From an uncultured Methanosarcinales archaeon (lineage in GTDB: Archaea; Nanobdellota; Nanobdellia; Woesearchaeales; UBA119): a stretch of DNA of 33,820 nucleotides. The notes under the pieces are model-generated. The model had not been told where the DNA came from, did no database searches, and saw only the letters and a program-made list of their open reading frames with translations. Numbering within the stretch: position 1 is the stretch's first letter; the number at the start of each line of letters is the position of its first letter. The position numbers and the translations under genes are program-made. Of the stretch, positions 1,139 through 25,424 are shown piece after piece. Where the stretch lies: the NCBI GenBank assembly GCA_964580745.1, contig CAZOKS010000002.1, positions 1-33,820 on the forward strand, written 5' to 3'.

Positions 1139-1152
1139 GCTCCTTAGCTAAC

Positions 1153-10600: not shown

Positions 10601-11104
10601 CTCCAAGGAAGGGTTATTAATGTTTCCCCCAACAAGCTGCACAACAAGCTCCTCTCCCTTTTGGAGTTTATTTGAGTTGATTCTCAGAGAAGGATAGCTG
10701 TTCCCCTCTTTTTTCTGAGAAAATTCCTTTTTATCCGAATTTATCTCACCTGAAACAACAAACTCAAGACTACTCATATCCCTGCCTGATTTATCCCTAA
10801 GAAAAACAGAATATTCACCTTCCTGAGCAAAACTTAATATTATAGGAAAAATCAACTCTCCCCAATACATACTTCTTCTTCCATCCTTGACCATTATTAA
10901 GTCATATTCCTTAGAAACATCTTTTCCATTCATGTTTTCAGGAACAAGCCTTAACTCTATCTTTTCATTAATGCCATAAACAATCTTCTCAAGCGGATTA
11001 AAAGAAACCTCAAAAGGCTGAATCTCAGAAAAAGAGCTATGATTACCTAAAACGATGAATACAAGTACAACTAATAAACCCGCAAAAATCTTTGGCCTTT
11101 CCAT
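1649..11104 (-). CDS. Giant (3151 aa) secreted adhesin-like protein with about 20 Ig-like repeats, two CARDB-like modules and a distinctive C-terminal domain
   Basis: 9456-nt uninterrupted ORF with an N-terminal hydrophobic signal/anchor (IFAGLLVVLVFIVLG). The N-terminal region has EGEY(S/F)V modules and the LYKC..(Y/W).F..QEC motif. Two Ig-like repeats lie at about 8840-9420, followed by a unique ~290-aa region and then the repeat arrays listed below. No C-terminal TM. N-X-S/T sequons occur about once per 10 residues in the repeats I inspected. Confidence 0.93.
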   Translation of the reverse strand: MERPKIFAGLLVVLVFIVLGNHSSFSEIQPFEVSFNPLEKIVYGINEKIELRLVPENMNGKDVSKEYDLIMVKDGRRSMYWGELIFPIILSFAQEGEYSVFLRDKSGRDMSSLEFVVSGEINSDKKEFSQKKEGNSYPSLRINSNKLQKGEELVVQLVGGNINNPSLELFVVHKDKSFKLLELSKEIRFAPSENGEYFVQLRDSGKIIDEASFFVGDKAGDVGLQSGKQTNKQFDKQSEKILGEEKALTLPSFGQEKKLATIPIKIKNHAGQSKQVRGEYGRSFRGEFIDVLNPTNKVNKIRFHDLKLKNLDSLRMEDIDNKEVWVNRNRAVQSFAIDPRGLNFSFAQIELEASGNALYKCQEYDFDAQECLGGWQKDRDIVPGENYTIMLTPEDPLYSEVNTSVGCSCSDSVNQQNSGSLSCSTFCPFTLNIPQDATSFFLEEMIINVTITVNADGCTMSNAQQSGDFDHDQNHDDGDEATIGSGSYTSTTSVSWTNSSIEQSGSRSFTNLDCSNWPDYCTYYIYIDSSMDFQAPGRSRKSPSMSISVDGVNYTINYTEPGAFSVSLDSPDNNYRTNASSEEFTYTPSNEEYSISNCSIYTNETSWSAKNTTYSITNGSQNTIIAAFNNEGHFAWNVECWDSNGNSATSPTNRTIIIDRSGPDVSLVLPSNGDTYTDSNVVPFVYNVSDDSGIDNCTLYVNGSGVKTDTSITKNQNQTINHNLDNGDYSWYVRCVDEAGNANQSSSRSLTVSVIKPIYYGNWFESSTSDCSSFPCEISLEQGTDGTQNSVSGTIAASSSELVVEAESPFMGANGAEVSSSGDVLFSTYFQTSDTRVEVSWWLYILNSSDEEELICSNTVGTASSSGAATTGSCNPSSDKRLLSTDKLYYEIELTNTHPAQSRDFVHLIDHISSFVNVTGFTQLGTLEATKTAPSSKVYVDQGNSLTLSCQVNCTDGTCLSTNVTAQTNASGSWSAISGSGIISLNGSETNPHAMGDVFNTSNSTSFGLNASSPGSTYIRCAAQSKYSTSYTEAVEVSVASTEAPEVNLSSPKNNSWVNSSSVTLEYIPSSYSQIDNCSLYINGIFNQTNSSPINNGGMNNFTLSSLEQRKYNWSVSCQDTSSRVGNSSTWYLKVDYEGPYLIELNKPIDDWSTTSPDIEFNWTAYDNRAANMSCDLRINGTRNTTITAYNATPATTTIEGFEIGYYIWDIACQDLANNTNTSETRSFNISDEPPQVSLYSPENESGTNETSVELTYNASDNFALDECELYINGIYNQSNQSVLINGLNNFSVSFDETEYNWSVTCYDNNGNNASTGNATLYVDLTKPYINLQSPGNDAYFTDSEVAFSYTPTDNYDTLNCTLYVDGVENDTSIVSSGNQYDVTLDGYKDGVHYWNVSCTDIGGNINYSETRNFTINQTPVVEPISPSNNTHTNQSNVLIEYNISDNDDIEGCSLYINSTFNQSNSTNVLKGQTNNFTLSSPAEAEYNWFVKCNDSGVYGNSDSSDTWRFIVDRTGPTISLNLPENDYTINTTVYTFNWTAADNFATGLLCNLSINDSVNGSNIESNNGVPALFNVTGLRNGDFNWSVSCVDNATNTNISETRNFTVLLSPRVNLTSPEDGDGDLFHDVSFKYIPSLGSENFTNCTLMLNGQENETKYDINAKVENNFTVTLPDGRYNWNVKCYDTNNLSGMAPENWTYYVDSEEPFEIELTYPENDSTVARNNVSFKFIPKDKISDELSCDVYLTDEGSTYSIGSDLNTTNGTEYTYYYILNDGTYNWSVDCTDKAGNFNVSDTWFFDVEAPPNVTLVAPDNESWFNETDVNLTYFPSDDILITGCALYINGSYNRTASFVLNKQNNTFEMGDLAQGAYLWSVQCNDSDGNSFMPTNKTFYVDNLSPQISLNSPINSEELDSSSVLFNWTASDNLATELSCDLWLNDSLNVTDITSNNGAPTTFTIEGIDDGDYNWSIFCRDNALNENQSNSEDFAVQEPPKVSLGNPIANYRNNSVNVTLYFTATDNSGNISLCTLILNSEANETNAGVESGVEASFNLYDLPNGSYTWDVNCSDPNSNTGTNGSSKSFYVDLEGPSVELHHPSDDQLFNQNDILFNWTATDFNSSVEVSCDLFISDPEGDILEENITSFSGEVSSKLVKNLSDGEHFWNVSCTDDLNNTDYSVTWRFVVNQPDLYINASLIGFNNTNPSINDTINITANVSNIGGIDASNVEVEFWDGRPDDGGSLIGSDQKNVAYNDSSLFYIEWNITEGMHVVFVSADPSNSINELNESNNNATLNISVLWVEWNSPENESVFNSSNVDLNFTLHDYTGGAINYSIYVNDMFSGEEGEGIDGVSENISVNLNEGLNTIFVEGLDYLDRRKNSSELYITLDTNAPTSEILTANESWFNISAPNISIRIIDSLDSILNYTLYINGSSENQGYVSNNSIENITLNTQPDGEYLLVLEGEDDASNKENSSSKIIYIDTEKPSIELNYPPNQENFSTSDVSLNYTVYDNLASVADCYITLDGEDKGLSNVNVGEENSYLATDLSEGEHLWNVTCFDEANNSNTSETRIFNVFFPPVIEVTSPKNLTWSNQDTNTFRFNVTDDTGIENCSIVLNGAIKDTKFNIINNSENSFTVSGMNNTNIWQIECYDNSSYHAYGISSERVLYVDLVEPSSTITTVNHTWFNSNPSISFILEDNMANPINYTVYVNDSFNSEGNSGNNSEDSANLLGLQNGTYEIKVEAKDNALNAQNSSSIIVYYDTVEPSINLTYPENDSSIDTDTTNLNFSVEDNMAESLICNLTLDGEIIEQNILVLNGSEENVSVVDLEGGPHYWNVSCIDNATNIGQSETYLFYSPYPDLEVNSSNIFFSDDSPSEGSIVNITATVFNIGGGDAKNITVQFWENEIGGSGSQIGSNQTINLTALESENVSVEYTAELGTNDIFVVVDPSNEIEEENETNNNASKSITVEFWHYAGGETNDTITLEDEELEGIFQWQVANSTGSNIYVSDYDADVNWQSLQALGRDTSGNERIEDFGELDNALNSSTFFDSVNATYLENGNPKETIELEVYNQEITNIPVVNSTNSTSFKTGILWDFSDGGTTYSEVQDVIFLTVVNKSQQGYNETRDFEIRIPATLGQLVGPDNDKVAFYTEIK
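1652..2203 (-). other. C-terminal ~184-aa domain of the giant protein (unnamed module, copy 1 of 4 in the window)
   Basis: FWHYAGGETNDTITLEDEELEGIFQWQV...NIYVS...FFDSVNATY...NIPVVNSTNSTSFKTGILWDFSDGG...VIFLTVVNKSQQGYNETRDFEIRIPATLGQLVGPDNDKVAFYTEIK(stop). It aligns by eye with ORFs 23821-24582 and 24648-25424, and with aa 93-262 of the 1369-aa protein. Confidence 0.65.
2204..2548 (-). other. CARDB-like module 2 of the giant protein
   Basis: PDLEVNSSNIFFSDDSPSEGSIVNITATVFNIGGGDAKNITVQFWENEIGGSGSQIGSNQTINL...DIFVVVDPSNEIEEENETNNNASKSITVE. This shows the V.N.G...A / F..D / D..N...E.NE.NN pattern typical of CARDB domains. Confidence 0.6.
2549..4219 (-). repeat. Tandem array of 6 Ig-like protein repeats (~93 aa, ~279 nt each)
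   Basis: Repeat starts read as LWVEWNSP, NAPTSEIL, EKPSIEL, FPPVIEV, VEPSSTI and VEPSINL. Three repeats have the Cys pair (DCYITLDG..WNVTCFD; NCSIVLNG..WQIECYD; ICNLTLDG..WNVSCID) and three have no Cys at all. DNA identity between units is low; the repeat is visible at protein level. Confidence 0.75.
4220..4555 (-). other. CARDB-like module 1 of the giant protein
   Basis: QPDLYINASLIGFNNTNPSINDTINITANVSNIGGIDASNVEVEFWDGRPDDGGSLIGSDQKNV...HVVFVSADPSNSINELNESNNNATLNISV. The pattern matches module 2. Confidence 0.6.
4556..7984 (-). repeat. Tandem array of 12 Ig-like protein repeats (~95 aa each), mostly alternating between two subtypes
   Basis: Subtype A looks like P.V.L.SP.N....V.L.Y..S.....C.LYING..N........NNF.......YNW.V.C.D. 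Subtype B looks like P.I.L..P........F.WTA.DN.A..LSCDL..N.....NG.....T..G...G.Y.W...C.D.A.N...SE.R.F. The order I read is A,B,A,A-like,A,B,A,B,A,B,A,B. 3429 nt / 12 = ~286 nt per unit. Confidence 0.75.
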
Positions 11105-11128: not shown

Positions 11129-12022
11129 TTACTTACCCTTCTCTTTATTTATCTCCTTAAGGGACCCTTCAACCTCCTCCTTAATCTCTTTGGAAAGCTT
11201 AGAGAATTTATTCTTCAACTCCTCCATGGTTGATTTGGTCTTGTCATCCAGCAGGTTTATAAGATTGGTAGTGTGCTTCTCAAACTTGTTGAACTTTTTG
11301 ATGAACTTTACCAGCTCATTCTTATCCGCTTTCTCGTCCACTTCTACCTTCAACTTATCAAAATCCCCCTGCAACTTGTCAAAACTTCTCTGAAGATTCT
11401 TTGTTATCTCATTAAACTGGTCAAACTCCGAAAATTTCTTCTCTACCTCAACAAACATAGACTCAACCTTGTTGGAATGCCTTTCAACATTTGCTTCCCT
11501 CTTCTTAATCTCAATCAGTTCCTCCTTAATTTCATCGTTGAGCTTGGTTACCTGTTCAACCCCCTTGTAGAAATCAATCTTGCTCTGAACTGATTTAAGC
11601 TGCTCCAGCACATTCTTCACAAGGGATTCATTGCTCTCAATATTCGCCTTCAGCGCTTCAGTCTTAGAATCAACCTTTCTAACCTCAATCATCAATTTGT
11701 CTGGTTTAACAGATTCCACAAGGTCAATCGCTTTAGTAGCAGCAGTTTCAAGGTTTGCAATCGTTTTTGATGTGTCTGTAAGCATCCCCCTCAGCTCTCC
11801 AATCTCCTCATTAAGTTTAGAAAATCTTTCATTTGTGGCTTTTCTCTCCTCGCTCAACCCTTCAATCTTGGCACTGAGCTTCGTCAACTCTATACCAAGC
11901 TTTGAATCACCGAAATTTTCCTCTTTAGAGCTCTGCCTAGCACTCGCTCTCCTTTGCTTTTCCTCTTCCAGATTTTGCTTAATCCTTTCCTCATCGCTTA
12001 GCTTTTTCTTAAAAGGCCACAT
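11129..12022 (-). CDS. Cytoplasmic coiled-coil protein (297 aa), function unknown
   Basis: K/E/L-rich heptad-like sequence throughout, with no hydrophobic TM segment. GAAGGTGGA lies just upstream of ATG 12022. The stop is 24 nt upstream of the giant gene start. Confidence 0.8.
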   Translation of the reverse strand: MWPFKKKLSDEERIKQNLEEEKQRRASARQSSKEENFGDSKLGIELTKLSAKIEGLSEERKATNERFSKLNEEIGELRGMLTDTSKTIANLETAATKAIDLVESVKPDKLMIEVRKVDSKTEALKANIESNESLVKNVLEQLKSVQSKIDFYKGVEQVTKLNDEIKEELIEIKKREANVERHSNKVESMFVEVEKKFSEFDQFNEITKNLQRSFDKLQGDFDKLKVEVDEKADKNELVKFIKKFNKFEKHTTNLINLLDDKTKSTMEELKNKFSKLSKEIKEEVEGSLKEINKEKGK

Positions 12023-12159: not shown

Positions 12160-12672
12160 TTAGTCCCCTTTATTTCCATTGTCCTCCCTAACTCGCCTCA
12201 TAATCTCGCTCTTCAAGTCATACTCCTTCTTTTCTTTATCCTGTTTAATTTGTTTCTCAATTTGGCTAATCAACTCTCCAAGTTCGTTAATCCGTTCCTC
12301 ATCATCTTCAATCTCGAGAAAGCCAATCTTCCCCTTAGCCATCGTTAATAACGCCGAAGCATGAAACATATCCTTTCCTTCTTTTCTGGCAGCTGAAATC
12401 TCTCTATCCAACTCAGCCATCTTTTCCTTCAAACCCTCAAGCTTCTCCATTCCAACCCGAACATCTATTAGAGAGGATTCTTTCATCACATTAACCTTCT
12501 CAAGGTATTTCTCTGATTCTTTCATTACTTTATCAAACTCCTCTCTGCTTATGCTTCCCTCATTCTTTTTCTCATTCCTATTTTCATAACTCTCAGGATT
12601 TCTCTTTTCAGTTTTGTCTTCTTTATTCCTTACCTTATTCATTTCCTGGGCCATTAGACAACGCCTCAACAA
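12160..12672 (-). CDS. Small cytoplasmic coiled-coil protein (about 160-170 aa), function unknown
   Basis: The ORF limit is ATG 12672. In-frame ATGs at 12654 (MAQEMNKV) and 12642 (MNKV) are more plausible starts. ATG 12642 overlaps the TAA of the upstream 1369-aa gene as ATGAATAA. The protein is charged and helical with no TM. Confidence 0.7.
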   Translation of the reverse strand: MLRRCLMAQEMNKVRNKEDKTEKRNPESYENRNEKKNEGSISREEFDKVMKESEKYLEKVNVMKESSLIDVRVGMEKLEGLKEKMAELDREISAARKEGKDMFHASALLTMAKGKIGFLEIEDDEERINELGELISQIEKQIKQDKEKKEYDLKSEIMRRVREDNGNKGD

Positions 12673-15600
12673 GCTTGTCCTTCTTCATTAGATTACCAAT
12701 CCTTTCCGCGAATTCCTCATCCTCAAGGGAGTATTTTATCCAATTGGAAAAATCATGCTTTTCCTCATTTACATACTTCCTGAATGTCTCATCTGGCATA
12801 TCCTTTAATATCTCCTTTAATTCCTTAAGATTAGAGGCCACCTTTCCATCGGAAAATCTGAACTCCTTTCCTTTAGGAGCCTTCTTATTCAGCAGTCCTT
12901 CAAGATTATTCTTAGATTCAGGGCTCTCCAGAGTATCATCTTTATTCTTTTCCTTAGTTGTTTCATCAACATTCCCTTCACCTTCTTCGCCAGCCTCTTT
13001 GTTATTGCTTTTCCCTTCCTTTTCTTCCCTTTCTTTCCCCTCTTCTTTATTTTCTCTATCCTCTTCTCCTTTTTCTTTTCCTCCATCTTTCTCTTCTTTT
13101 CTATCTTCTCTGTTCTCATTATTTTCTCCTTCATCTCCTTTTTCTTCACTTACAGTATCGCTTTCTTCATCGTCTTTCCCTTCTTTTCTATCTTCTCCGT
13201 TCTCTTCACCCTTTCCATCCTCTCCATCCTTTCCATCATCCTCCTTGCTTTCGTTCTTCTTTTTATCATCCTTGCCTTTTTCTTTTTTAGGAAGTTTTTC
13301 TCCCTTGCTCCTTTTATCCAACAACTCCAAAATCTCCTTTCGGTCTTTAGTTTCATCAAGCAAATCAGCGAGCTCATCATCTCCAACTGCATTTCGAATC
13401 CAATCAGCAAAATCATTTTTCTCATCATTAACATGGAACTTGAAGTCTGAGTCCTTCATTGCCTCAATCTCTGCATACAAATCTCTGGGATTTACTACCA
13501 ACATGCCATTGTTAAGCTTCAGCATATTTTCAGGCTTTACATCTCTGTTAAATCTCTCCGTTACGGACTTCTCTGATTCCCCTTCCTTCTTCTTACCTTC
13601 TTCATCACCTTTTTTCTGTTCAGCCTCAATCTTCTCCCTTTCCTTCTTCGCTTTCTCCAGCTCCCTTCTCATCTCCTCTTCCGAAACCTTCGGCCTCTCC
13701 AACTTCTTTGGCTTTTTGCCAAGCTTCTTCCACAGCTTCTCAACCCTGGGCTTCAGGCCATCAAGATAGATTTTGGCCATGTTGAAACCTCCCGCCTTAA
13801 CCTTATCTAGTGCAAGTTTCAACTCCAACTTCAAGTCAAACACATCCTGGTCCAACTGTTCCAGCTGCTCCAACTCAAACTGCATCTGGTCAATAATATC
13901 ATTGTATTCGTTGTATTTCTCAATCTCTTCATCAGAAAGCCTCTCAACCGAATGCTTAATAGGTTTGAAAGTAACAAAGTAAGGCCGGCCTCTATTATAT
14001 GCCGAATTTTGCACCATCCCAGTTCCAACGCTTGCTTTAACCAAACTCTTCAAAACCTCATCACCGTACTTGGTCTTAATCCTCTCCAAATCCCCTTCAT
14101 CCCTTGTTCGCATCTGGATTTCCGTATTGATGTTAGCTTTAATCTGCCCCACGAAGTCCGCCAAAACCTGGCTAATAAGCATAACGCCAATTCCCCACTT
14201 CCTAAACTCTCGGCAAGCCCTTTCAATCTGGATAAAGCCCTCCCCACTTCCACCAAACTTGGATAGCAACCTATGGACCTCATCGTAAACCAAGCATAAT
14301 CTTAACTCTTGAGACTCATCAAAACCCTCATGGAATACCTCTCTAACTGTGTTCGCAACAAATACATCAATATCCTTAGGGTCAAGCTTATGAAGAGCAA
14401 AAACCTGAATTTCTCCCGGTTTCATATACTTCTTTATGTTAATAATCTCTTTAGCATCTGTAATCTCTCGAATGTTTCCCTTGAAAGCTTTAGCATCATT
14501 CGGCTTCATCCCAAATCCTGAATAAAGATTCAGCAACCCCTTATTCTCCAATTTCCTTAAAAATCCAGTCCACTGAGCAGTAGGATCAAACACAATAACA
14601 GCAACATCCTTATCCAACAACTCTTCAATAATTACCTGGGCAGCGAAACTCTTACCACCACCAGTACTACCTGCCACAATCGTGTGAGTCTTAAAGTTCT
14701 CAATCTTGAAATAAGTCCTATTATTCGTTTCTGCAATCTTCCCAACATATATCGTATCGGGTCCAGGTTTAGGAAGCTGCGAATACTCCACCTTCAAATG
14801 ATACTTCTTCTTCGCTTCAATTTCCTTTCTAAGCATAAATATGCCGAAAATCAATAAAGCCAATCCAATACCCATTAAGATGGCCTGCCAAACCCTTATC
14901 TTTCCAAACAAGAGATGCTGATAGAAAGGCTCTGTTACAGTAAAAACAGCACTAGTACTGCTCGTTAAATCAAGATAGCTGGCGCTTGCCCTGATTATAT
15001 ATTCGCCTGTAGGCAAATCAGGAGGCAGCTCATAATTCTTAATTATTGAAAGAGAAGTCCTCAAAAAAACATTCGTTTGATGAGTCCATAAAGTCTCATT
15101 GCCATTTATATTCTGAATAGTATAAACCAACTGCACCGGATACTGCTGGTCGGTAAGCAGATTTGTTAGAGAATTCTTGAATCTAACAAACGAGCCCGGA
15201 TAGTAATTCTTTTCAGGAACGCTGATTTCCATTAACATCGCCTGAACAGGACTCTTCTCCTTGCCTAAAATCTCAATAATGATAGGGATTGTCGTATTAA
15301 TCCCGCCAGTAATGTTAAGCGTTCCATTGTATACCCCTGGAGTGCTGTTTCCAAAGAAAGTCAAGGTCAAATCATCAAGGTCCTTTGCCCCAATAAACGT
15401 TCCCCTTTTATCCATCATTGTTATTTTCTTAACATCTCCTGTAATGTTAAATTGAAGCTGAATCCCCTTGTTCTTAAAACTCTGGATATGAATAACCTCT
15501 TGGGCAAACTCAGCCAGCCTAATCTTCTTATAGATTTTATTGACAGAAATCCAGAACTCCTTCCCCTCAATCTCAGAGGGCCTTTCTTTTCTATATGGGA

Positions 15601-16744
15601 TTTCGCCAGGACCCACATTCGGCCCAAAATCCGGTCCCACATTTTGTTCCGCGGGCGGGCTGTCATACTCTTTCTGCTCGACCTCCAGCTCCATGATAAT
15701 ATTATGCATGGTTGAATTGCCTTCCGGAATCGTGATATTGCTTTCATATACCTGATAGTTCTCCTTTATCGCGATTATCTGCGTCTCGCCCGCCCGCGTT
15801 GTCAGATTGTAAAAACCCTTCTCATCCGTAACCGTGGATTTTGGGCCGGATGTTATCAGCACATTCTCTAATGGATTCCCGCTTATATCAGTTACAATTC
15901 CATAAACTATTCCTTTTACATATGGTTCTTCTTGCCCCGAAATACAAACATTTGTAGGGTCTATGAAAACATAGTATTTTGTGGTTTGATTGTTGTGAAC
16001 AGGCAGGAGAAACTGGTAGTTGTAGTATCGATTGGTAAACCCCTTAACTAATCTCTCATTCAAGATGGTAACCACGACAGGATTCCCATTGCTGTCCTTC
16101 AAAAGGCCTGTTTTGAATGTGCCCTCTTCAGTGCCACTTCCTACTTTGGTTGTCGCAGCAGGTATGTTGTTGATGGTTTTGGAGCCAATCTCTATGCTCA
16201 TTGTCCCGGTAAAGGTATTGGAAGCAGAATCATAGTCATCTGGGTTCGAATTTATGAAGGCATTAACCTCGGCAGGAGACATTGGAACAAGGTCTTGCAC
16301 AACTATTTCTTCAGGAGGTACGGTAGATGCAAACAATAGGTTGTCTTTTCCTTCTTCTACACAATCAAAGAACATATTGGCTTCTTCTGTTCCCCCCGGC
16401 TCAAATGTGTATTCCCATGGCTGAGAAAAACCAACGCCAAATGCAGCACCGTATAAGGCAACCCAGTTGTATGTTGGTCTTGTGTATATAAGATTCATAT
16501 TATAGATATAACCGCCTCGCCCTTCATGATATATTATAAAACCGGTTATTCCTTCACGCCCTAAAAAAGAGGCTGTGATTAGGATTATTGCGCATACAAC
16601 AAGAGATATGATTATCGCCCAGTTCCTTTTACTATCCCTTTTCCTTTTATCTCTTTCATCTAGGAATTTCTCAAGGGCAGGCTCTCTTTCTATGAGATGT
16701 TCAATATCCTTATTTATCTGCTGCGGTTTTTTTATCCCAACCAC
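12635..16744 (-). CDS. Two-TM membrane protein (1369 aa): large ectodomain, cytoplasmic HerA/FtsK-superfamily P-loop ATPase, low-complexity linker and two conserved tail modules
   Basis: GTG start at 16744, directly after an in-frame TAG.
- Basic N-terminus.
- TM1 at aa 42-62 (16559-16621).
- Ectodomain with a carboxypeptidase-regulatory-like beta-sandwich (GIVYGIVTDISGNPLENVLITSG..TDEKGFYNL, about 15690-15930).
- TM2 at aa 618-638 (14831-14893).
- Walker A GSTGGGKS (14648-14671).
- Walker B LCLVYDE (14279-14299).
- Further context: VIVFDPTAQW, MLISQ, NTEIQMRTRD.
- Coiled coil, then a K/E/D/G-rich linker (about 12888-13295).
- Tail modules at about 13296-13560 and 12638-12887. Confidence 0.9.
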   Translation of the reverse strand: MVGIKKPQQINKDIEHLIEREPALEKFLDERDKRKRDSKRNWAIIISLVVCAIILITASFLGREGITGFIIYHEGRGGYIYNMNLIYTRPTYNWVALYGAAFGVGFSQPWEYTFEPGGTEEANMFFDCVEEGKDNLLFASTVPPEEIVVQDLVPMSPAEVNAFINSNPDDYDSASNTFTGTMSIEIGSKTINNIPAATTKVGSGTEEGTFKTGLLKDSNGNPVVVTILNERLVKGFTNRYYNYQFLLPVHNNQTTKYYVFIDPTNVCISGQEEPYVKGIVYGIVTDISGNPLENVLITSGPKSTVTDEKGFYNLTTRAGETQIIAIKENYQVYESNITIPEGNSTMHNIIMELEVEQKEYDSPPAEQNVGPDFGPNVGPGEIPYRKERPSEIEGKEFWISVNKIYKKIRLAEFAQEVIHIQSFKNKGIQLQFNITGDVKKITMMDKRGTFIGAKDLDDLTLTFFGNSTPGVYNGTLNITGGINTTIPIIIEILGKEKSPVQAMLMEISVPEKNYYPGSFVRFKNSLTNLLTDQQYPVQLVYTIQNINGNETLWTHQTNVFLRTSLSIIKNYELPPDLPTGEYIIRASASYLDLTSSTSAVFTVTEPFYQHLLFGKIRVWQAILMGIGLALLIFGIFMLRKEIEAKKKYHLKVEYSQLPKPGPDTIYVGKIAETNNRTYFKIENFKTHTIVAGSTGGGKSFAAQVIIEELLDKDVAVIVFDPTAQWTGFLRKLENKGLLNLYSGFGMKPNDAKAFKGNIREITDAKEIINIKKYMKPGEIQVFALHKLDPKDIDVFVANTVREVFHEGFDESQELRLCLVYDEVHRLLSKFGGSGEGFIQIERACREFRKWGIGVMLISQVLADFVGQIKANINTEIQMRTRDEGDLERIKTKYGDEVLKSLVKASVGTGMVQNSAYNRGRPYFVTFKPIKHSVERLSDEEIEKYNEYNDIIDQMQFELEQLEQLDQDVFDLKLELKLALDKVKAGGFNMAKIYLDGLKPRVEKLWKKLGKKPKKLERPKVSEEEMRRELEKAKKEREKIEAEQKKGDEEGKKKEGESEKSVTERFNRDVKPENMLKLNNGMLVVNPRDLYAEIEAMKDSDFKFHVNDEKNDFADWIRNAVGDDELADLLDETKDRKEILELLDKRSKGEKLPKKEKGKDDKKKNESKEDDGKDGEDGKGEENGEDRKEGKDDEESDTVSEEKGDEGENNENREDRKEEKDGGKEKGEEDRENKEEGKEREEKEGKSNNKEAGEEGEGNVDETTKEKNKDDTLESPESKNNLEGLLNKKAPKGKEFRFSDGKVASNLKELKEILKDMPDETFRKYVNEEKHDFSNWIKYSLEDEEFAERIGNLMKKDKLVEALSNGPGNE
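15959..16468 (-). other. Ectodomain segment (aa 93-262) of the ATPase protein carrying the unnamed module shared with the giant adhesin and the small secreted proteins
   Basis: TYNWVALYGAAFG...NLLFAS...DDYDSASNTFTGT.SIEIGSKTINNIP...GTFKTGLLKDSNGNPVVVTILNERLVKGFTNRYYNYQFLLPVHNNQTTKYYVFIDP. Compare FKTGILWDFSDGG..VIFLTVVNKSQQGYNETRDFEIRIPA..FYTEIK at the giant C-terminus. Confidence 0.6.
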
Positions 16745-16933: not shown

Positions 16934-19900
16934 CTATTCGATGCTTTGGTTGTTGAGTATCTTAAGCAGGTCTTCTACCTCTTCCTTCAATTCTTTCTTA
17001 TCAGCATCATTTAAGAGGTCATAGGCTTCATTCAATTCCCTCATCCTTTCAATTTTGTCAATCTGTTTATCATCTCTTATCTCTTCTGCTGTTTTGTCTA
17101 TCATTTTTAAGAGATATGCTTTATTGATTTTGTCATGAATGCTAAGGGCTTCTTCATAAGCATCTTCTTTGATTCTCTGAGGCATCTTTTCATAAATCAA
17201 TTTAATTTCCTTGAACACCATGTTTGCTCTTTCCAAATTTCCTTCCTGAAGATAATCCAGAGCATCGTTTATCAAGGACCTTATCTGAGCCAATTGTTTT
17301 TTCTTTCTGCGTTTGGCAACGCTCAATATATTTTCTCCAACCTCAGTTGAAAATATTAGGTAAATGGCTATTACTACTGATACAAGGATTATGCCAAATA
17401 TAGGAGAGGTGAAATCAACATCAGGCAAAGAGAACGCTCCTGTTATCAAATTCCCTCCTTTATCAGTGGAGATTAGATTCTCTGAGAATACAATAGTTTG
17501 TGATTCTTTTATGCTCTCAAAATCTTTAAATTCATCAGTATAATAGATTATTTTATCCTTTAATTCGAATTTTACTAGCGGGTCTTTCTTTATTGTTTCC
17601 TGGCTGCTCACAAAAGTTATGGCATTTGTTGTTTCTGCGAAGCCTTTTGAGATGTTCTCTAATATAAAAACGCGAGTATGGTCCGCTCCTGAATAAGTGA
17701 TTACTTTTTCTACCAGCGTAATCTCTTCTGTATGGTTGTCAAGGAATTGGAGTGTTACATGGCTTGCCTTTGTTTCTACAGAAAGTTTGTTTTGGAGTTC
17801 CTTTAGTTTCTCTTCATCAACTTTTCCTAAAATTCCTTTCTCTTTAATATATTGGTTTGCTATACTAACCAGTTCTTGTTGTTTTGGGTAACTAACATAG
17901 CTCTCTGTTTTTTCTACCTTTAGAGTAGAAATTGTGTTTTTCTCCAACTCTTTTAACTCAGCCTGATATTCCTCAGCTTTCTTTTTCTTTTCGTCATTGC
18001 TTAGGTCTTTTCGGTATTGAAGATTGTTCAAATCCCTTATCTTTCTTTCGAATGTCTGGAGGGTCCTTTCCAGGTCTTGTTTTACTGATAACGCTTCGGC
18101 CGCTGATTTTGATTGTAGGTCAAGTCCGTTTAGGTTTTCAAATCCTTCTTCTATCTTTGTTCTTAAAGAGCCTGCATCTATGCTTCCATCTGTTTGCTCT
18201 TCTTTTGAACTCTTTTCTGTATCTGACTGCTGAACAGATGCAGTATTGTCCTTTTCCACCTCAAAGCTCGCAATCTCTGATGAGAATGTGTCATTCCCTG
18301 AATCACATTCAATCTTCCATTCATACTTTCCCTTATCTAGGGTTTTGGTTAGCTCTGCTACATAGTTTTCTTCTACATCGAAACTTTTAATCTCTTCAAA
18401 CCAATCAGATTTACTTGGTTTTAGGAAAATGGTACATTCTGCATCTTCTGCACTGCTCACGCTTGCTAAGAAAGTTATATCTTGGTAATCAAATGAGCTT
18501 TCATCTTTCGGCTGGAACAGGACTATTTGGTTGAGCTTCTCTCTTAAAGAGTTATCCAATTGAAGAACCACATCTATAGTCTGCTTCTCTTTGACTTCTA
18601 TAGCCCTTCTGTATGCTTCGTAATCCTTTTTCTCCACCCTTAAGGTATGCTCTCCAAGAGGCACCTTCAGCTTAATTTCACCATTATCTTTCGTATATCC
18701 GCTTCTGTCTCCGAAGTCCACATAGGCAGATTCGATAGCTTTGCCATTAGAGTCCTTAACTCTGATTGTGATTTCTCTCCAATCATCCACATCAACAGCA
18801 ATCTGCTTGGTTTTAGAGTTTCCTTCACTATCCTTAACCTCAAGAGTAATGCCATAATTTCCTTTTTCATCATATTTTATCTCCAGGTTTTTGTCTTCAA
18901 TTCTAGTTCCGTTCTCTAAAATCCATGAGTAGTGATAGCCGGGAATTCCTCCAGATGCGCTTGCTTCAAGCTCAAGTTCTTCCCCAACAAGAACATCTAG
19001 TTTTCCTTCAATCTCAATCTGCAGGTTATTTGAAACAACAAAGCTCTTTCCTATTTTATATGTTTTGTTTTGGTGGCTGATTGTTGCATTTATTGAATAT
19101 TCTCCCGTTGTGTTTAAACTTCCCAATGACTTTATCAGGGGGTATGTTTCTTTATTTAGAGTGTAAATATTGGAGCAGGTTATCCAGGTTTGTCCTGCCA
19201 TATACTCCGGCCCGCAAAACTCAATGTTGGCATTTGAACCATTCGGAGCTGTTATCTTGAAATATCCTTCCTCTCCTATTGTATAATTCTCCTTATTAAG
19301 CTCGAGTGAGAATACCAGCGGCAGAACCCCAATTTCCTTTTCAATCCTTTTTTCTTCGTAATTTTCAGAACCATTATATACTATTTCTATAAGGTATTCC
19401 CCCTTTTCAGAAAAGGTATGATTAACTGAAATGCTTTCTGAGGATACATAAGAATCATTGATTATTGAGCCATTGATTAGAAGGTATATCTTTCCTTCAG
19501 GGTTATTATTCTTGGCGTTAATCTCTATACTATCTCCTTCATATATGATGTTTTCAGAAATAGAAAACTCTATGTTTGGCTCAGCCCTCTTAACCTCAAA
19601 CTTAAATGTGGGAGTTGAATAAGTTTCATCTAACACATCTAACAGAAAAGATAGACTCCAAGTATAATTTCCCGAAGGAATTTCAGGAGTGGTGCAGGAA
19701 AAGTTATAAAGATTATCATCTGTTATTGTATTATAACTATATGTCCACTCAATATCTTCATTAATTGCTTCTCCATCTGGACCTATTGGTCCGTTTGGTT
19801 CTCCTCCATTGGAAATATTCCATACGCTCCATAATACAAATTTTTTATTAGGTTCATAAATAAAGCTTGAACCATCTTCTGGTCCGTACTTGTCAATCCA

Positions 19901-20131
19901 TTCTGCTGTTGGTTCGTTGTTTGTTTCGGGGTTGTTTGTTGTTTCATTGGTTTTAATTGTTTTTGCTGATTCATTGGTTTCATTGGTTTCATTTGTTGGG
20001 TCTAAGGTATCAGCCCCTATAACTATGTCCATTTCAATGGCAAAGCCCACAGCAAATACCGCAGCAATCAGCAATATCATTATGCTGGTATTAAAGATAT
20101 CCCAAAACCCAAATCTCCTCTCCTTTTTCAT
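16934..20131 (-). CDS. Bitopic surface protein (1065 aa): Ig/PKD-like and carboxypeptidase-regulatory-like domains, extracellular coiled coil, C-terminal TM and helical cytoplasmic tail
   Basis: Domain order:
- N-terminal signal/anchor (IMILLIAAVFAVGFAI).
- PKD-like GGIPGYHYSWILENGTRIEDKNLEIKYDEKGNYGITLEVKDSEGN (about 18790-18985).
- ITIRVKDSNGKAIESAYVDFGDRSGYTKDNGEIKLKV (about 18565-18775).
- One Ig repeat like those of the giant protein (KYEWKIECDSGND).
- Coiled coil.
- Juxtamembrane TIVFSENL...ITGA.
- TM PIFGIILVSVVIAIYLIFS (about 17345-17405).
- ~136-aa helical tail.
The start overlaps the upstream RHH stop as ATGA. Confidence 0.9.
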   Translation of the reverse strand: MKKERRFGFWDIFNTSIMILLIAAVFAVGFAIEMDIVIGADTLDPTNETNETNESAKTIKTNETTNNPETNNEPTAEWIDKYGPEDGSSFIYEPNKKFVLWSVWNISNGGEPNGPIGPDGEAINEDIEWTYSYNTITDDNLYNFSCTTPEIPSGNYTWSLSFLLDVLDETYSTPTFKFEVKRAEPNIEFSISENIIYEGDSIEINAKNNNPEGKIYLLINGSIINDSYVSSESISVNHTFSEKGEYLIEIVYNGSENYEEKRIEKEIGVLPLVFSLELNKENYTIGEEGYFKITAPNGSNANIEFCGPEYMAGQTWITCSNIYTLNKETYPLIKSLGSLNTTGEYSINATISHQNKTYKIGKSFVVSNNLQIEIEGKLDVLVGEELELEASASGGIPGYHYSWILENGTRIEDKNLEIKYDEKGNYGITLEVKDSEGNSKTKQIAVDVDDWREITIRVKDSNGKAIESAYVDFGDRSGYTKDNGEIKLKVPLGEHTLRVEKKDYEAYRRAIEVKEKQTIDVVLQLDNSLREKLNQIVLFQPKDESSFDYQDITFLASVSSAEDAECTIFLKPSKSDWFEEIKSFDVEENYVAELTKTLDKGKYEWKIECDSGNDTFSSEIASFEVEKDNTASVQQSDTEKSSKEEQTDGSIDAGSLRTKIEEGFENLNGLDLQSKSAAEALSVKQDLERTLQTFERKIRDLNNLQYRKDLSNDEKKKKAEEYQAELKELEKNTISTLKVEKTESYVSYPKQQELVSIANQYIKEKGILGKVDEEKLKELQNKLSVETKASHVTLQFLDNHTEEITLVEKVITYSGADHTRVFILENISKGFAETTNAITFVSSQETIKKDPLVKFELKDKIIYYTDEFKDFESIKESQTIVFSENLISTDKGGNLITGAFSLPDVDFTSPIFGIILVSVVIAIYLIFSTEVGENILSVAKRRKKKQLAQIRSLINDALDYLQEGNLERANMVFKEIKLIYEKMPQRIKEDAYEEALSIHDKINKAYLLKMIDKTAEEIRDDKQIDKIERMRELNEAYDLLNDADKKELKEEVEDLLKILNNQSIE

Positions 20132-20394
20132 TTTAAAGTCCTCAACGATTCTTTCAACTCTTTGAGTAATTGTTCGTTTCTTTCCAACATCGCTTCTAAT
20201 TCCTTTGCTTTTTTGGATGTGTTTTCGCGCTTTTTTGGAGTAAGAAGCCTTCGTTCTTTATCTTCGAGGAATCTCTTGTTTAAGACCGCCCTAATCTGTT
20301 CTGAAATATCCATATAAAAGTTCTTCTCGCTTAATGATTTCAATCTTCTTGCTAATCCAGCGGGCATTCTTATGCTAACTAAAGTGTCATTCAT
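20128..20394 (-). CDS. Ribbon-helix-helix DNA-binding protein with coiled-coil C-terminal extension (88 aa)
   Basis: LVSIRMPAGLARRLKSLSEKNFYMDISEQIRAVLNKRF fits the RHH strand plus two helices. There are ATGA overlaps with both neighbours (20391-20394 and 20128-20131). Confidence 0.8.
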   Translation of the reverse strand: MNDTLVSIRMPAGLARRLKSLSEKNFYMDISEQIRAVLNKRFLEDKERRLLTPKKRENTSKKAKELEAMLERNEQLLKELKESLRTLK

Positions 20395-20582
20395 TTCAGC
20401 GCCTCCTCTTCTTTTCTTATTCTTTTGTCATCCTTGTTATTACTTTCTTCCAACACATATTCTCTAAGGAAAGCCCTTATTGCTTCAGAACGAGATTTGA
20501 ACAAACCTTCTTTGATTAAATCATCTAACCAATTCACAATTTTTCTTGGAATTCTGACATTAACTGTTTCTATCTTAACCAT
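20391..20582 (-). CDS. Ribbon-helix-helix (CopG family-like) DNA-binding protein (63 aa)
   Basis: VNVRIPRKIVNWLDDLIKEGLFKSRSEAIRAFLREYV is a textbook CopG/NikR-N-terminal-type RHH pattern. It is the first gene of the minus-strand train. Confidence 0.85.
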   Translation of the reverse strand: MVKIETVNVRIPRKIVNWLDDLIKEGLFKSRSEAIRAFLREYVLEESNNKDDKRIRKEEEALK

Positions 20583-23820: not shown

Positions 23821-24582
23821 ATGGAAACAAATAATTGGAAAGTGTTGGTAGTTACAATGCTCTTAGTAGGGGTTTTTTCTGTAGGCTTAGCTCTTGCAGA
23901 GAATGTGCCCCTTGGTGCTGAGAGTGCAAATGTTGTTCGTTCTGAAACATCTAATGCTAGCTTATATACGCCAGATTCGGTGGATGCAATTGCAGGAAAC
24001 CTGACAGAGCTTAATATAACAGGTGTGGCTCAGACAAAATCTTGGCAGGGTTTCTACGGTAATGTTTCTGGTGAAATAATCTTGGCTGATTCCTCCGGAT
24101 ACAGGTTTTATGATTGGTCTGTTGCAGAACCTCAGGGAGAGGTATTTGCTTCGGTAAACGACACAATAACTTGGACAGACATCAACTGTGCTCCAATCAG
24201 CGATGATTCTACCTATCGGACAAATTGGTATAGTTTTTATGGCATGGCGGAAAGCGACTATGATGACATAAATGATACATATAACTTTACAAATCATCCT
24301 GAGTTTTATGTTGGCTTTTCAACTTTGAATAACTGCCAGACAGCTTATACATTTGTGAATAATGTAAGCCAAAGCACGGATTTCCCAGCAGTCCTGCTTG
24401 CAAGTGATTCCAACTCCACTTTGATATTTACTTCTATCCTGGAAGATAAAACAGCAGGTCAAAGACAAGGAATCACAGGCTACGATGGACAGAACTATGA
24501 TTTTCAGGTTTTGGTAGCAGAGAATGGCCAACAAGGTAATAGTCAGGTAACACCTTATTACTTTTGGCTGGAGATAGAGTAA
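23821..24582 (+). CDS. Small Sec-secreted protein (253 aa), stand-alone copy of the unnamed module
   Basis: Signal peptide VLVVTMLLVGVFSVGLALA/E. Body: SWQGFYGNVSGEIILADSSGYRFYDW...GEVFAS...DYDDINDTYNFTNHPEF...DFPAVLLASDSN...YDFQVLVAE...TPYYFWLEIE(stop). Confidence 0.88.
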   Translation: METNNWKVLVVTMLLVGVFSVGLALAENVPLGAESANVVRSETSNASLYTPDSVDAIAGNLTELNITGVAQTKSWQGFYGNVSGEIILADSSGYRFYDWSVAEPQGEVFASVNDTITWTDINCAPISDDSTYRTNWYSFYGMAESDYDDINDTYNFTNHPEFYVGFSTLNNCQTAYTFVNNVSQSTDFPAVLLASDSNSTLIFTSILEDKTAGQRQGITGYDGQNYDFQVLVAENGQQGNSQVTPYYFWLEIE

Positions 24583-24647
24583 ACCCTCTATCTTTTTGTT
24601 TTATTTTTTCATGTGTATATTTATATTGAAGGTCGGTGGTGTATAAA

Positions 24648-25424
24648 ATGAACAACAACTTAAGAAAAACCCAAAATAAGGAAGGGCATTCCATTGTAAA
24701 CAGAAAAGGGTCTTATGTCCTTATTGCGGTAATGTTTGCTTTTATCATAATAAACTCTTTGCTTAGTTATGTTAAGGCTGAACCTGCTGGGATGACTATT
24801 TCAAGCAATGTTACGGAATCCAAACAAACGACTTCGCCAGATAATCGATCTGATGAGGGAGGAACTATAACAACTCTTGGGGTTAATGTACTTCAACAGA
24901 ACCAGTTCTGGAAAGCATATGTAGGAAACATTACCGGTAAATTTATCTTAGAAGATGCCTCTGGCTTCTCAATCTATGAATGGCCTATTCAGTCTGCCGA
25001 CCTTACTGGAGAGGTTTATGCTTCAAGGGAAATGCAGCCAAACTGGACTGCTATAGAATGTTCAAATGACACTGTTCTCGCAAGCGAGGATACATTTATG
25101 GGCTTTAATTCAACTTCAGTTTACAGTATAAATAGAACATTTAATGAATCAGAGCATCCTAAGCTGGAAATAGGTTCAGTAACAATATCTGCTGACCAAT
25201 GTAGGAGCACCAGCACTTATGTGAATGATACCGCTCAAGCCCAGGCTTCTGCAAGCTTCCCGGTGGTGTTGTTGGCTGCTGATACAAATGTGATTTATGC
25301 TTCCCCAATAAACCAAGGAAGCGATAGCTTCCATAATGGAACCAAAGTAGACTTCCAGTTGATGATACCAGATAAGGACCAAGATACAACGACTTATTAC
25401 TTTTTCGCGGAGATTGCTCAATAA
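24648..25424 (+). CDS. Small Sec-secreted protein (about 258 aa), paralogue of 23821-24582
   Basis: The ORF opens at GTG 24636. I prefer ATG 24648, which is 7 nt after GGTGGTG. Signal peptide YVLIAVMFAFIIINSLLSYVKA/E. Body: FWKAYVGNITGKFILEDASGFSIYEW...GEVYAS...SINRTFNESEHPKL...SFPVVLLAADTN...VDFQLMIPD...TTYYFFAEIAQ(stop). Confidence 0.88.
   Translation: MNNNLRKTQNKEGHSIVNRKGSYVLIAVMFAFIIINSLLSYVKAEPAGMTISSNVTESKQTTSPDNRSDEGGTITTLGVNVLQQNQFWKAYVGNITGKFILEDASGFSIYEWPIQSADLTGEVYASREMQPNWTAIECSNDTVLASEDTFMGFNSTSVYSINRTFNESEHPKLEIGSVTISADQCRSTSTYVNDTAQAQASASFPVVLLAADTNVIYASPINQGSDSFHNGTKVDFQLMIPDKDQDTTTYYFFAEIAQ

What the first reader, a model, noticed from the sequence alone, without database searches (positions are those of the whole stretch)
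15959..16468. The ectodomain of the membrane ATPase carries the same unnamed module as the giant adhesin C-terminus and two small secreted proteins
Residues ~93-262 of the 1369-aa protein lie between TM1 and the carboxypeptidase-regulatory-like module. They read TYNWVALYGAAFG..NLLFAS..DDYDSASNTFTGT..IEIGSKTINNIP..GTFKTGLLKDSNGNPVVVTILNERLVKGFTNRYYNYQFLLPVHNNQTTKYYVFIDP.

Block for block this parallels two other sets:
- The giant protein C-terminus: FWHYAGG..NIYVS..FFDSVNATY..NIPVVNSTNSTSFKTGILWDFSDGG..VIFLTVVNKSQQGYNETRDFEIRIPA..KVAFYTEIK.
- The 253/258-aa proteins: SWQGFYGNVSG..EVFAS..DYDDINDTYNFT..FYVGFSTLNNC..YDFQVLVAE..TPYYFWLEIE.

So one beta-rich module I cannot name is shared by an energy-transducing membrane protein, a 3151-aa adhesin and two ~25-kDa secreted proteins. 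These are encoded on both strands, up to ~22 kb apart. Inference: homotypic or strand-exchange contacts between these modules could dock the adhesin, or a polymer of the small subunits, onto the ATPase-containing membrane complex.
Basis: partly seen in the sequence, partly recalled or inferred. Interest (0 to 1): 0.88.

Follow-up and report, generated by a model that had tools for sequence, protein, structure and literature searches.

The report
New surface domain shared by four proteins
A previously undescribed extracellular protein domain, found only in tiny symbiotic archaea (Woesearchaeota/Nanoarchaeota), is shared by a membrane ATPase, a giant adhesin and a pair of small secreted proteins, which suggests they assemble into one unknown cell-surface machine.

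Summary
ATPase residues ~66-273 (finding: 93-262 = 15959-16468), the last ~187 residues of the 3151-aa protein, and almost the whole mature 253-aa and 262/258-aa proteins are one homologous ~190-aa domain.

Profile-profile scores:
- ATPase vs small family: 99.6%, E 8e-25
- small vs giant C-terminus: 97.7%, E 2e-12
- ATPase vs giant C-terminus: 96.5%, E 9e-10

The window holds exactly four copies.

The domain matches nothing in Pfam, NCBIfam or PDB sequences. A confident AlphaFold model (pLDDT 90, pTM 0.85) has no Foldseek neighbour in PDB or BFVD.

The organism is a Woesearchaeota (DPANN) archaeon. At least 550 species genomes encode a relative of the ATPase. Among the 80 best loci examined, every orthologue with an intact N-terminus carries the domain directly after TM1, usually in the operon RHH-RHH-1065aa-ATPase-coiled-coil.

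The small proteins form a conserved alpha-beta-313aa cassette. It usually lies next to a protein ending in the domain.

The docking interpretation fits the gene linkage, the membrane-proximal position and the higher conservation of the giant's C-terminus. It was not tested directly; no multimer prediction was possible. Function is inferred. This is a new domain family and probably a new surface apparatus.

The parts
12635..16744 (-). 1369-aa bitopic membrane ATPase. Layout: cytoplasmic N-tail, TM1, ~555-aa ectodomain, TM2, HerA-type P-loop ATPase, coiled coil, acidic/lysine-rich tail with two DUF5752-like motifs.
   Evidence: Pfam DUF87 scores 45.1 bits (cutoff 23.2); CarboxypepD_reg and DUF5752 also hit. 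The closest solved structures are HerA. TM segments and sequon density support the topology.
15926..16549 (-). Copy 1 of the new domain: ATPase residues 66-273. The finding's 15959-16468 lies inside it. It begins ~4-14 residues after TM1, so it is membrane-proximal.
   Evidence: HMM envelope. hhalign results. AlphaFold model with pLDDT 90, pTM 0.85.
16559..16621 (-). TM1 of the ATPase (res 42-62), preceded by the basic stretch KRKRDSKRN, which indicates N-in orientation.
   Evidence: Sequence and hydropathy.
14831..14893 (-). TM2 of the ATPase (res 618-638), followed by RKEIEAKKK on the cytoplasmic side.
   Evidence: Sequence and hydropathy.
13940..14767 (-). HerA/FtsK-superfamily ATPase domain (res ~660-935). 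Walker A is GSTGGGKS; Walker B is LVYDEVH.
1649..11104 (-). 3151-aa secreted giant protein. It has an N-terminal signal/anchor, Big_13/Big_7 Ig-like repeats and two CARDB domains. Sequon density is 5.8 N-glycosylation sequons per 100 aa.
1652..2212 (-). Copy 2 of the new domain: giant residues 2965-3151. It is the extreme C-terminus, directly after a CARDB domain. It lacks the N-terminal AG-x-x-T-E segment.
23821..24582 (+). 253-aa secreted protein ('alpha'). It has a Sec-type signal peptide (…GLALA|ENVP). Copy 3 of the domain covers residues ~52-253 (23974-24579).
24636..25424 (+). 262-aa secreted paralogue ('beta'); 258 aa from the ATG at 24648. Copy 4 of the domain covers residues ~73-262 (24852-25421). 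It is 30% identical to alpha.
25414..26355 (+). 313-aa secreted, Cys- and sequon-rich beta protein. It is the third member of the conserved alpha-beta-313 cassette. It has no copy of the domain.
16934..20131 (-). 1065-aa single-pass membrane protein with PKD, CarboxypepD_reg and Big_3_5 in the ectodomain and a cytoplasmic coiled-coil tail. It is the conserved upstream partner of the ATPase (67 of 80 loci).
11129..12022 (-). 297-aa cytoplasmic coiled-coil protein. It is the conserved downstream partner of the ATPase (62 of 80 loci).
20128..20582 (-). Two small ribbon-helix-helix (CopG-like) genes heading the ATPase operon. They are conserved in 44-51 of 80 loci.
26840..30013 (-). 1057-aa single-pass membrane protein, syntenic with the alpha-beta-313 cassette in other genomes. 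Its cytoplasmic tail (26864-27106) carries the same DUF5752-like motif as the ATPase tail.
12719..13549 (-). Region of the ATPase tail holding two DUF5752-like ~60-aa motifs (res ~1066-1139 and ~1288-1342).

Best explanation
Shown: the four segments are copies of one lineage-specific extracellular domain of ~190 residues, with 12 beta-strands and two short helices. Its predicted fold has no recognisable relative.

Inferred: the domain is a like-with-like assembly or docking unit of a Woesearchaeota/Nanoarchaeota cell-surface apparatus.
- The membrane copy sits just outside TM1 of a (presumably hexameric) HerA-type ATPase. That ATPase is encoded with a 1065-aa single-pass partner and cytoplasmic coiled-coil proteins. 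I propose this copy is the fixed base.
- The Sec-exported alpha/beta pair, which consists of little else than the domain, co-assembles on that base as a filament, stacked rings or a lattice. The 313-aa protein acts as an accessory.
- Large Ig-repeat adhesins join the assembly through the copy at their extreme C-terminus, leaving their long repeat region free to reach a host cell.
- The cytoplasmic ATPase supplies work across the membrane, either by mechanotransmission to the ectodomain or by translocating a macromolecule through its ring. Which of these applies is unknown.
For: Homology:
- (hhalign, 96.5-99.6%).
- (whole-library cross hits).
- (four copies and no others in the window).
- (block-for-block alignment).
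- The two AlphaFold models have the same order of secondary-structure elements.

The domain sits at fixed, architecture-defining positions:
- Always right after TM1 in the ATPase orthologues examined that have an intact N-terminus (74 of the 76 loci scored; the other two, L047 and L053, are cut at the contig end), drawn from the best 80 loci of >=550 species genomes.
- Always at the extreme C-terminus in giants and in ~620-650-aa CARDB proteins.
- The whole mature protein in the small family.

Gene linkage:
- Window, L004 and L005 carry all four gene types within ~25 kb.
- A large same-strand ORF follows ATPase-cc297 in 25 of 56 loci with room. All three complete giants of >=2400 aa end in the domain.
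- 5 of 6 independently retrieved small-protein loci have a C-terminal-domain protein within 10 kb.
- The alpha-beta-313 order is conserved in 10 genomes.

A second shared module, the cytoplasmic DUF5752-like motif, links the ATPase tail to the 1057-aa protein and to ~300-aa genes of the small-protein cluster.

The giant's C-terminal domain is more conserved (36-53% identity) than its body (26-41%). That pattern fits a docking end better than a host-specific tip.

Sequon densities support the extracellular location of all copies.
Against: - No direct test of any contact was possible.
- Only 15 of 80 ATPase loci have another domain-bearing gene within 10 kb. By a rough estimate this is only a few-fold above random expectation for a ~1 Mb genome.
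- The secreted partners carry Sec signal peptides, so the ATPase is not needed to export them and its role is unexplained.
- The giant also has an N-terminal hydrophobic segment that might be an uncleaved anchor. In that case its C-terminal copy would be a distal tip, not a docking end.
- Other architectures (SP-domain-CARDB, and ~515-aa SP-domain-Cys-rich proteins) show the domain is used promiscuously.
Confidence: 0.42

Rival explanations
1. The domain is a ligand-binding (lectin-like or envelope-binding) module. Each protein independently binds the same external target, such as a host-cell envelope component or the organism's own surface glycan. The proteins do not contact each other. On the giant it would be the distal tip, as in RTX-type adhesins.
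For: - The giant has an N-terminal hydrophobic segment that could serve as an anchor.
- In many bacterial giant adhesins the ligand-binding domains are C-terminal (general knowledge).
- The domain occurs in several other secreted architectures.
- No oligomer evidence was obtained.
Against: - In the ATPase the domain starts only ~4-14 residues after TM1. That is a poor position for reaching another cell.
- The giant's C-terminal copy is more conserved than its body, whereas host-recognition tips are usually the most variable part.
- The obligate alpha-beta pairing in conserved order suggests a heteromeric structure.
Confidence: 0.28
2. The alpha/beta proteins are the S-layer (2-D lattice) subunits of these archaea. 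The copies in the ATPase and in the adhesins are lattice-insertion domains. This resembles the way SLH or CWB2 modules are shared by S-layer proteins and other surface proteins in Firmicutes. It is a geometric variant of the assembly idea, with no filament.
For: - There are tandem arrays of 2-6 small paralogues.
- The small-protein cassette recurs in loci from many different genomes.
- The small proteins are sequon-rich and Sec-exported.
- No other S-layer candidate is evident in the window.
Against: - 25-kDa subunits are small for archaeal S-layer proteins (general knowledge).
- No expression or abundance data are available.
- The lattice idea does not explain the tight operon with a 313-aa accessory, or the ATPase.
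Confidence: 0.15
3. This is domain shuffling only. A lineage-specific structural domain has been reused in unrelated surface proteins, and the genes are neighbours simply because surface-protein genes cluster. There is no common machine.
For: - 65 of 80 ATPase loci lack another copy within 10 kb.
- There are at least five different architectures.
Against: - The same gene types recur in the same order across genomes whose ATPases are only 40-60% identical.
- There is a second shared cytoplasmic motif between the two gene groups.
Confidence: 0.13
4. The resemblance is chance or compositional (Asn/Ser/Thr-rich surface proteins).
For: Direct pairwise BLAST is weak for some pairs: giant vs P253 gives E 1.5.
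Against: - Profile-profile E values are 1e-9 to 1e-24 over 168-179 aligned columns.
- The HMMs hit no other Asn/Ser/Thr-rich ORF in the window.
- Predicted secondary structure is collinear between the two models.
Confidence: 0.01

Closest known systems
SLH and CWB2 anchoring modules of Firmicutes surface proteins (Bacillus anthracis Sap/EA1/BSLs; Clostridioides difficile SlpA/Cwp family)
   Same: One module is shared by an abundant small or structural surface protein and by many larger surface proteins, including adhesins. It gives them a common attachment to the envelope.
   Different: - There is no sequence or fold relationship.
- Those modules bind a cell-wall polysaccharide. Here there is no wall, and one copy is part of a membrane ATPase.
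- The binding partner here is unknown.
Two-domain tip adhesins and donor-strand pilins (FimH/FimG/FimA of type 1 pili; archaeal 'threads' and TasA-like bundling pili)
   Same: - A large adhesin carries a subunit-like domain at its C-terminus.
- The small subunits consist of that domain plus a conserved N-terminal segment.
- Subunits are exported by Sec.
   Different: - The fold is not Ig-like or pilin-like, and Foldseek finds no match to any solved pilin.
- No usher or chaperone is recognisable.
- Strand exchange was not tested.
- The base is an ATPase ectodomain, which has no counterpart in those systems.
Membrane-anchored FtsK/HerA-superfamily translocases of secretion or transfer systems (EccC/EssC of type VII secretion, VirB4/VirD4 of type IV secretion, CedB of the crenarchaeal Ced DNA-import system, SpoIIIE/FtsK)
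   Same: A P-loop ATPase of the FtsK-HerA superfamily is tethered to the membrane by N-terminal TM helices. It is encoded with membrane proteins that have large ectodomains, and with small and very large exported proteins.
   Different: - There is a single HerA-clade ATPase domain, not three FtsK-like ones.
- There is a ~555-aa ectodomain between two TMs.
- The partners have Sec signal peptides and are beta-rich, not WXG100/LXG helical hairpins.
- No CedA/VirB6-like polytopic protein is present.
- NCBIfam CedD, TraD and TraC scores are far below their cutoffs.
HerA (soluble hexameric helicase of HerA-NurA DNA end resection and of anti-phage systems)
   Same: The ATPase core is closest to HerA. 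The Pfam DUF87 hit is above its cutoff. The best PDB sequence matches are 4d2i and 8xau.
   Different: - It is membrane-embedded, with an ectodomain in place of the N-terminal HAS barrel.
- There is no NurA, Sir2 or DUF4297 partner in the operon.
- It has a long coiled-coil and DUF5752-like tail.

Membership tests
FtsK-HerA superfamily P-loop ATPase (HerA clade) | Walker A and B motifs, plus a match to the DUF87/HerA central-domain profile above its curated cutoff. | tested here: met
   GSTGGGKS and LVYDEVH are present. PF01935 scores 45.1 bits against a cutoff of 23.2. The best PDB sequence hits are HerA, E 3e-7.
Canonical HerA-NurA or anti-phage HerA systems | A soluble protein with an N-terminal HAS barrel and an adjacent NurA, Sir2 or DUF4297 partner. 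Full-length equivalog score. | tested here: not met
   NCBIfam HerA models score 16-28 bits against cutoffs of 800-850. The N-terminus is TM1-ectodomain-TM2. The neighbours are RHH, PKD-membrane and coiled-coil proteins.
Ced DNA-import system / type IV secretion coupling and VirB4 ATPases | An equivalog-level match to CedB/CedD, TraD/VirD4 or TraC/VirB4, with polytopic CedA/VirB6-like partners. | tested here: not met
   CedD scores 32 bits (cutoff 600), TraD 28 (366) and TraC 24.5 (567). The matches cover the P-loop region only. No polytopic partner was found among the scanned ORFs of the operon.
Type VII secretion (EccC/EssC with WXG100/LXG substrates) | Three tandem FtsK-like ATPase domains, and ~100-aa helical WXG100 substrates without Sec signals. 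| tested here: not met
   There is one ATPase domain. The small proteins are ~250 aa, beta-rich and carry Sec-type signal peptides.
Type IV filament systems (archaeal pili/archaellum) | Class III signal peptide on the subunits, a PilB/FlaI (T2SSE) ATPase and a PilC/FlaJ platform. | tested here: not met
   The small-protein N-termini are n-h-c Sec signals ending in AxA before a conserved Pro. No T2SSE hit occurs among the window proteins scanned. The ATPase is of the HerA clade.
Donor-strand-complemented pilins (chaperone-usher, archaeal threads, TasA/bundling pili) | An incomplete Ig-like or jelly-roll subunit fold related to solved pilins. | tested here: not met
   Foldseek of two models against PDB gave best E 0.23-0.26 and TM <= 0.25, with no pilin among the hits.
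Donor-strand-complemented pilins (chaperone-usher, archaeal threads, TasA/bundling pili) | An N-terminal strand inserted into the neighbouring subunit. | not testable with these tools
   This needs a multimer prediction or a structure. The only hint is a conserved AGNxTE segment with pLDDT 39-54 in the monomer model.
SLH / CWB2 / other named surface-anchoring domains | A match to the corresponding Pfam profiles. | tested here: not met
   P253, P262, ATPase residues 60-275 and the giant C-terminus have no Pfam or NCBIfam hit at E <= 0.1.
The new domain family itself (provisional) | Conserved blocks: W-x-G-x-Y-G; (E/N)-(V/I)-(Y/F)-A-S; D-S-x-N-x-T-(F/Y); F-x-x-G-(I/L)-L-x-D; G-(F/Y)-(N/D); (D/N)-(F/Y)-(Q/E)-x-x-(V/I)-P; (Y/F)-(Y/F)-x-x-(E/D). 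| tested here: met
   All four window copies align through these blocks. Reciprocal HMM hits support this.

The most novel reading that the evidence does not exclude
The gene set encodes a DPANN-specific host-contact nanomachine of a kind not yet described. In this reading, a hexameric membrane-embedded HerA-type translocase has a ring of ectodomain copies that nucleates a conduit or stalk of alpha/beta subunits. A giant adhesin joins the assembly through its C-terminal copy. The machine moves a macromolecule (DNA or protein) or transmits force between symbiont and host.
Probability: 0.12. Interest if true: 0.95.

Novelty: categorically new. Interest (0 to 1): 0.72.

Why it matters
DPANN archaea such as Woesearchaeota have tiny genomes and are thought to depend on physical contact with host cells. 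The molecules that make and use that contact are almost unknown.

This work identifies several things:
- a widespread membrane ATPase, with relatives in at least 550 species genomes, together with its conserved partners;
- a new domain with no recognisable structural relative, which ties that ATPase to giant adhesins and to a conserved pair of small secreted proteins.

If the domain is the glue of one apparatus, this gives a defined, testable parts list for a new archaeal surface machine. It also gives a sequence signature for finding its cargo and adhesins in metagenomes.

Even if the proteins do not interact, a new fold family that defines several surface-protein architectures in a major uncultured lineage is worth a family entry and a structure.

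Tried and rejected
1. A word-index search with the ATPase ectodomain found nothing. The exhaustive phmmer search was needed instead.
2. Sequence searches of PDB with the small-family profile and with the 313-aa protein gave no informative match.
3. Foldseek against PDB with the first, medium-confidence model (pLDDT 76.7) gave nothing. I repeated it with a pLDDT-90 model of the ATPase copy and again found nothing in PDB or BFVD. The negative result is therefore not due to model quality.
4. Type IV pilin reading rejected: the signal peptides are Sec-type. A T2SSE ATPase appears near only one distant locus, L086.
5. Defence-system reading rejected: PADLOC gives only generic HerA-core hits and no partner genes.
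6. Mobile-element or conjugation reading rejected: the ATPase operon is a conserved chromosomal feature across hundreds of species. No tRNA was found, and no relaxase- or integrase-like Pfam hit appeared among the ORFs scanned.
7. Seven literature searches found no description of this ATPase, the domain or the cassette. The one candidate paper, PMC4858521, mentions HerA only in passing.
8. I looked for further copies in the 1065-, 1057-, 593-, 313- and 237-aa proteins and found none.
Full report
**The window**

The 33.8-kb window comes from a Woesearchaeota (DPANN) archaeon. The 253-aa protein is 100% identical to a database protein from a 33,867-nt contig. A homologue is named 'Candidatus Woesearchaeota archaeon'. 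The ATPase is 90% identical to one in MAG UBA119 and 74% identical to another Woesearchaeota MAG.

The gene order is as follows:
- a 3151-aa Ig-repeat/CARDB protein (1649-11104, -);
- a 297-aa coiled-coil protein;
- a 170-aa protein;
- a 1369-aa membrane ATPase (12635-16744, -);
- a 1065-aa PKD/CarboxypepD_reg membrane protein;
- two RHH genes;
- an ABC-2 transporter pair (+);
- secreted proteins of 253, 262 and 313 aa (+);
- a 1057-aa membrane protein (-);
- proteins of 593 and 237 aa (+).

**Checking the observation**

The coordinates 15959-16468 encode ATPase residues 93-262. TM1 is residues 42-62, preceded by a basic stretch. TM2 is residues 618-638. The HerA-type ATPase domain follows TM2 in the cytoplasm. 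Sequon density is 1.8 per 100 aa in the ectodomain and 0.3 in the cytoplasmic part, which fits this topology.

Direct pairwise BLAST between the four segments is weak to moderate. The best cross-class pair is ATPase vs P253 at E 1e-7, and the worst is giant vs P253 at E 1.5. I therefore built family alignments:
- A1: 29 small-protein homologues.
- A2: 14 homologues of the giant's C-terminus.
- A3: 16 ATPase orthologues, taken from an exhaustive phmmer search of 1.84 billion representatives with ATPase residues 60-275.

Profile-profile comparison gave these results:

| Comparison | Probability | E-value | Columns |
|---|---|---|---|
| A3 vs A1 | 99.6% | 7.9e-25 | 179 |
| A1 vs A2 | 97.7% | 1.7e-12 | 169 |
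| A3 vs A2 | 96.5% | 9.1e-10 | 168 |

The exhaustive search itself retrieved small-family proteins at library-wide E values of 6e-6 to 8.5e-5. The small-family HMM hits 27 of the 33 Walker-A-bearing ATPase representatives.

Within the window, each family HMM finds the other three proteins and no other ORF. It also adds one block. The small proteins have a conserved segment just before the first Trp (AGNVTEL), and the ATPases have its equivalent (AG-x-I-T-E). The giants lack it; in them a CARDB domain ends at that point.

**What the domain is**

Neither Pfam-A nor NCBIfam matches any copy. A PDB sequence search with the small-family profile also finds nothing.

AlphaFold2 on the small protein gave pLDDT 76.7, with the core above 85. 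On the ATPase copy, with an 81-sequence alignment, it gave pLDDT 90.0 and pTM 0.85. Both models show the same order of about 12 strands and two short helices.

Foldseek of either model against PDB gave no hit better than E 0.23 or TM 0.25. Nothing was found in BFVD either. As far as these tools can see, this is a new domain family with no recognisable structural relative.

The domain occurs in at least five architectures:
- TM-domain-CarboxypepD_reg(n)-Ig-TM-HerA ATPase;
- signal peptide plus the domain alone (~250 aa);
- Ig repeats-CARDB-domain at the extreme C-terminus, in giants of 2100-3200 aa and in proteins of ~620-650 aa;
- signal peptide-domain-CARDB;
- ~515-aa proteins with signal peptide, domain, Cys-rich linker and a beta domain.

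**Genomic context elsewhere**

A scan of one genome per GTDB species found at least 550 genomes encoding a relative of the ATPase. The 80 best loci that were listed are labelled Woesearchaeota or Nanoarchaeota, or are evidently mislabelled MAGs. I examined those 80 loci.
- Every ATPase with an intact N-terminus carries the domain right after TM1.
- The 1065-aa protein lies upstream in 67 loci.
- The coiled-coil protein lies downstream in 62 loci.
- The two RHH genes are present in 44-51 loci.
- A large same-strand ORF follows in 25 of 56 loci with enough sequence. Most run off the fetched DNA, but all three complete giants of >=2400 aa end in the domain.
- Another domain-bearing gene lies within 10 kb in 15 of 80 loci.

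I then started from the small proteins and looked at six independent loci. Five have a protein ending in the domain nearby. The order alpha (253-type), beta (262-type), 313-type is conserved in ten genomes including the window. Loci L004 and L005 reproduce the window's whole layout. In MAG UBA153 the ATPase and the small-protein cluster sit on different contigs (L033 and L087).

A second link between the two gene groups is a ~60-aa cytoplasmic DUF5752-like motif. It occurs twice in the ATPase tail and once in the tail of the 1057-aa protein. It also occurs in ~300-aa genes next to alpha in other genomes.

**How it most likely works**

Shown: common ancestry of the four segments, their extracellular location, their fixed positions in each architecture, and recurrent gene linkage.

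Inferred: the domain mediates like-with-like association. On this reading the membrane-proximal copy on the ATPase is the base. The alpha/beta pair builds on it, and adhesins join through their C-terminal copy.

Indirect support:
- The ATPase copy begins ~4-14 residues from the membrane.
- The giant's C-terminal copy is more conserved (36-53% identity) than its body (26-41%).
- Alpha and beta are obligately paired.

The role of the ATPase is the weakest step. The partners have Sec signal peptides, so the ATPase is not their exporter. HerA/FtsK relatives translocate DNA or protein through a hexameric ring, so either translocation or mechanotransmission is possible.

I put the co-assembly reading at about 0.4. 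A common-ligand (lectin-like) reading gets about 0.3, an S-layer-lattice variant about 0.15, and mere domain shuffling about 0.13.

**Comparison with known systems**

In principle this resembles three things:
- SLH or CWB2 module sharing among Firmicutes surface proteins;
- FimH-type adhesins that carry a subunit-like C-terminal domain;
- membrane-anchored FtsK/HerA-superfamily ATPases of type VII and type IV secretion and of the Ced system.

Membership in each of these was tested and not met. Only the ATPase core qualifies as a HerA-clade member. Seven full-text literature searches found no description of the ATPase, the domain or the cassette.

**Verdict**

The finding is real and extends well beyond the window. 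It is a new domain family marking what is probably a new, lineage-wide surface apparatus of DPANN archaea. The mechanism remains an inference. Multimer prediction, phylogenetic profiling and biochemistry could settle it.

Noticed in passing
window 12719-13549 (-) and 26864-27106 (-): A ~60-aa cytoplasmic DUF5752-like motif (…EFRxxxGxxxxxxxELxxxLxxMxDExFxxHVxxxxNDFAxWIR…) occurs twice in the ATPase tail and once in the tail of the 1057-aa membrane protein (BLAST E 5e-10 and 2e-8). It also occurs in ~300-aa genes upstream of the alpha gene in L001 and L085, and in a 91-aa gene in L084. It may be a cytoplasmic docking motif linking the two gene groups.
   Followed up: partly
window 23821-26355 (+); L001, L003, L004, L005, L034, L041, L084, L085, L087: The two small proteins belong to two distinct paralogue lineages (alpha = 253-type, beta = 262-type). 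They are always adjacent in the order alpha-beta, followed by a 313-type secreted Cys-rich protein. Some genomes have arrays of up to six small paralogues.
   Followed up: yes
window 11129-20582 (-); L004-L083: The conserved core operon is RHH-RHH-1065aa (PKD/CarboxypepD_reg single-pass protein)-ATPase-(170aa)-297aa coiled coil. It is present in 62-67 of 80 loci from different species. The ATPase is therefore a lineage-wide gene and not part of a mobile element.
   Followed up: yes
window 2-1147 (-): A second large surface-protein gene starts just downstream of the giant and runs off the window. It has a weak A2M bait-region hit. It resembles the large ORFs that follow the ATPase operon in 27 other loci.
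   Followed up: partly
window 12675-13769 (+) and other + strand ORFs inside 12635-16744: The 364-aa Ser/Phe/Leu-rich ORF is antisense to the Lys/Glu/Asp-rich low-complexity tail of the ATPase (res ~1150-1290). It is almost certainly a shadow ORF and not a gene.
   Followed up: no
window 30300-32081 (+): The 593-aa protein has a signal peptide, a C-terminal TM helix and a cytoplasmic zinc-ribbon-like CxxC…CxxC tail. Its sequon density is unusually low (0.2 per 100 aa) for a predicted ectodomain. It is syntenic with the small-protein cassette in 8 loci. It has no Pfam match.
   Followed up: partly
window 20833-23604 (+): An ABC-2-type transporter pair (ATPase plus a permease with a long coiled-coil extracytoplasmic insert) lies between the two gene groups. 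It is conserved at this position only in the two closest relatives (L004, L069).
   Followed up: partly
L070 3394-12580: Two full-length ATPase paralogues, each with the N-terminal domain, lie in tandem in one genome.
   Followed up: no
P0177, P0188, P0199, P0143 (one search hits): A tight size class of ~515-aa secreted proteins has the domain at the N-terminus, followed by a Cys-rich linker and a ~250-aa beta domain with no Pfam match. This further architecture is not present in the window.
   Followed up: partly
L041, L005, L014 and other loci: Many genome records carrying this clearly Woesearchaeota-type operon are titled 'uncultured Methanosarcinales archaeon' or 'Candidatus Saccharibacteria bacterium'. 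These MAG labels are probably wrong.
   Followed up: no
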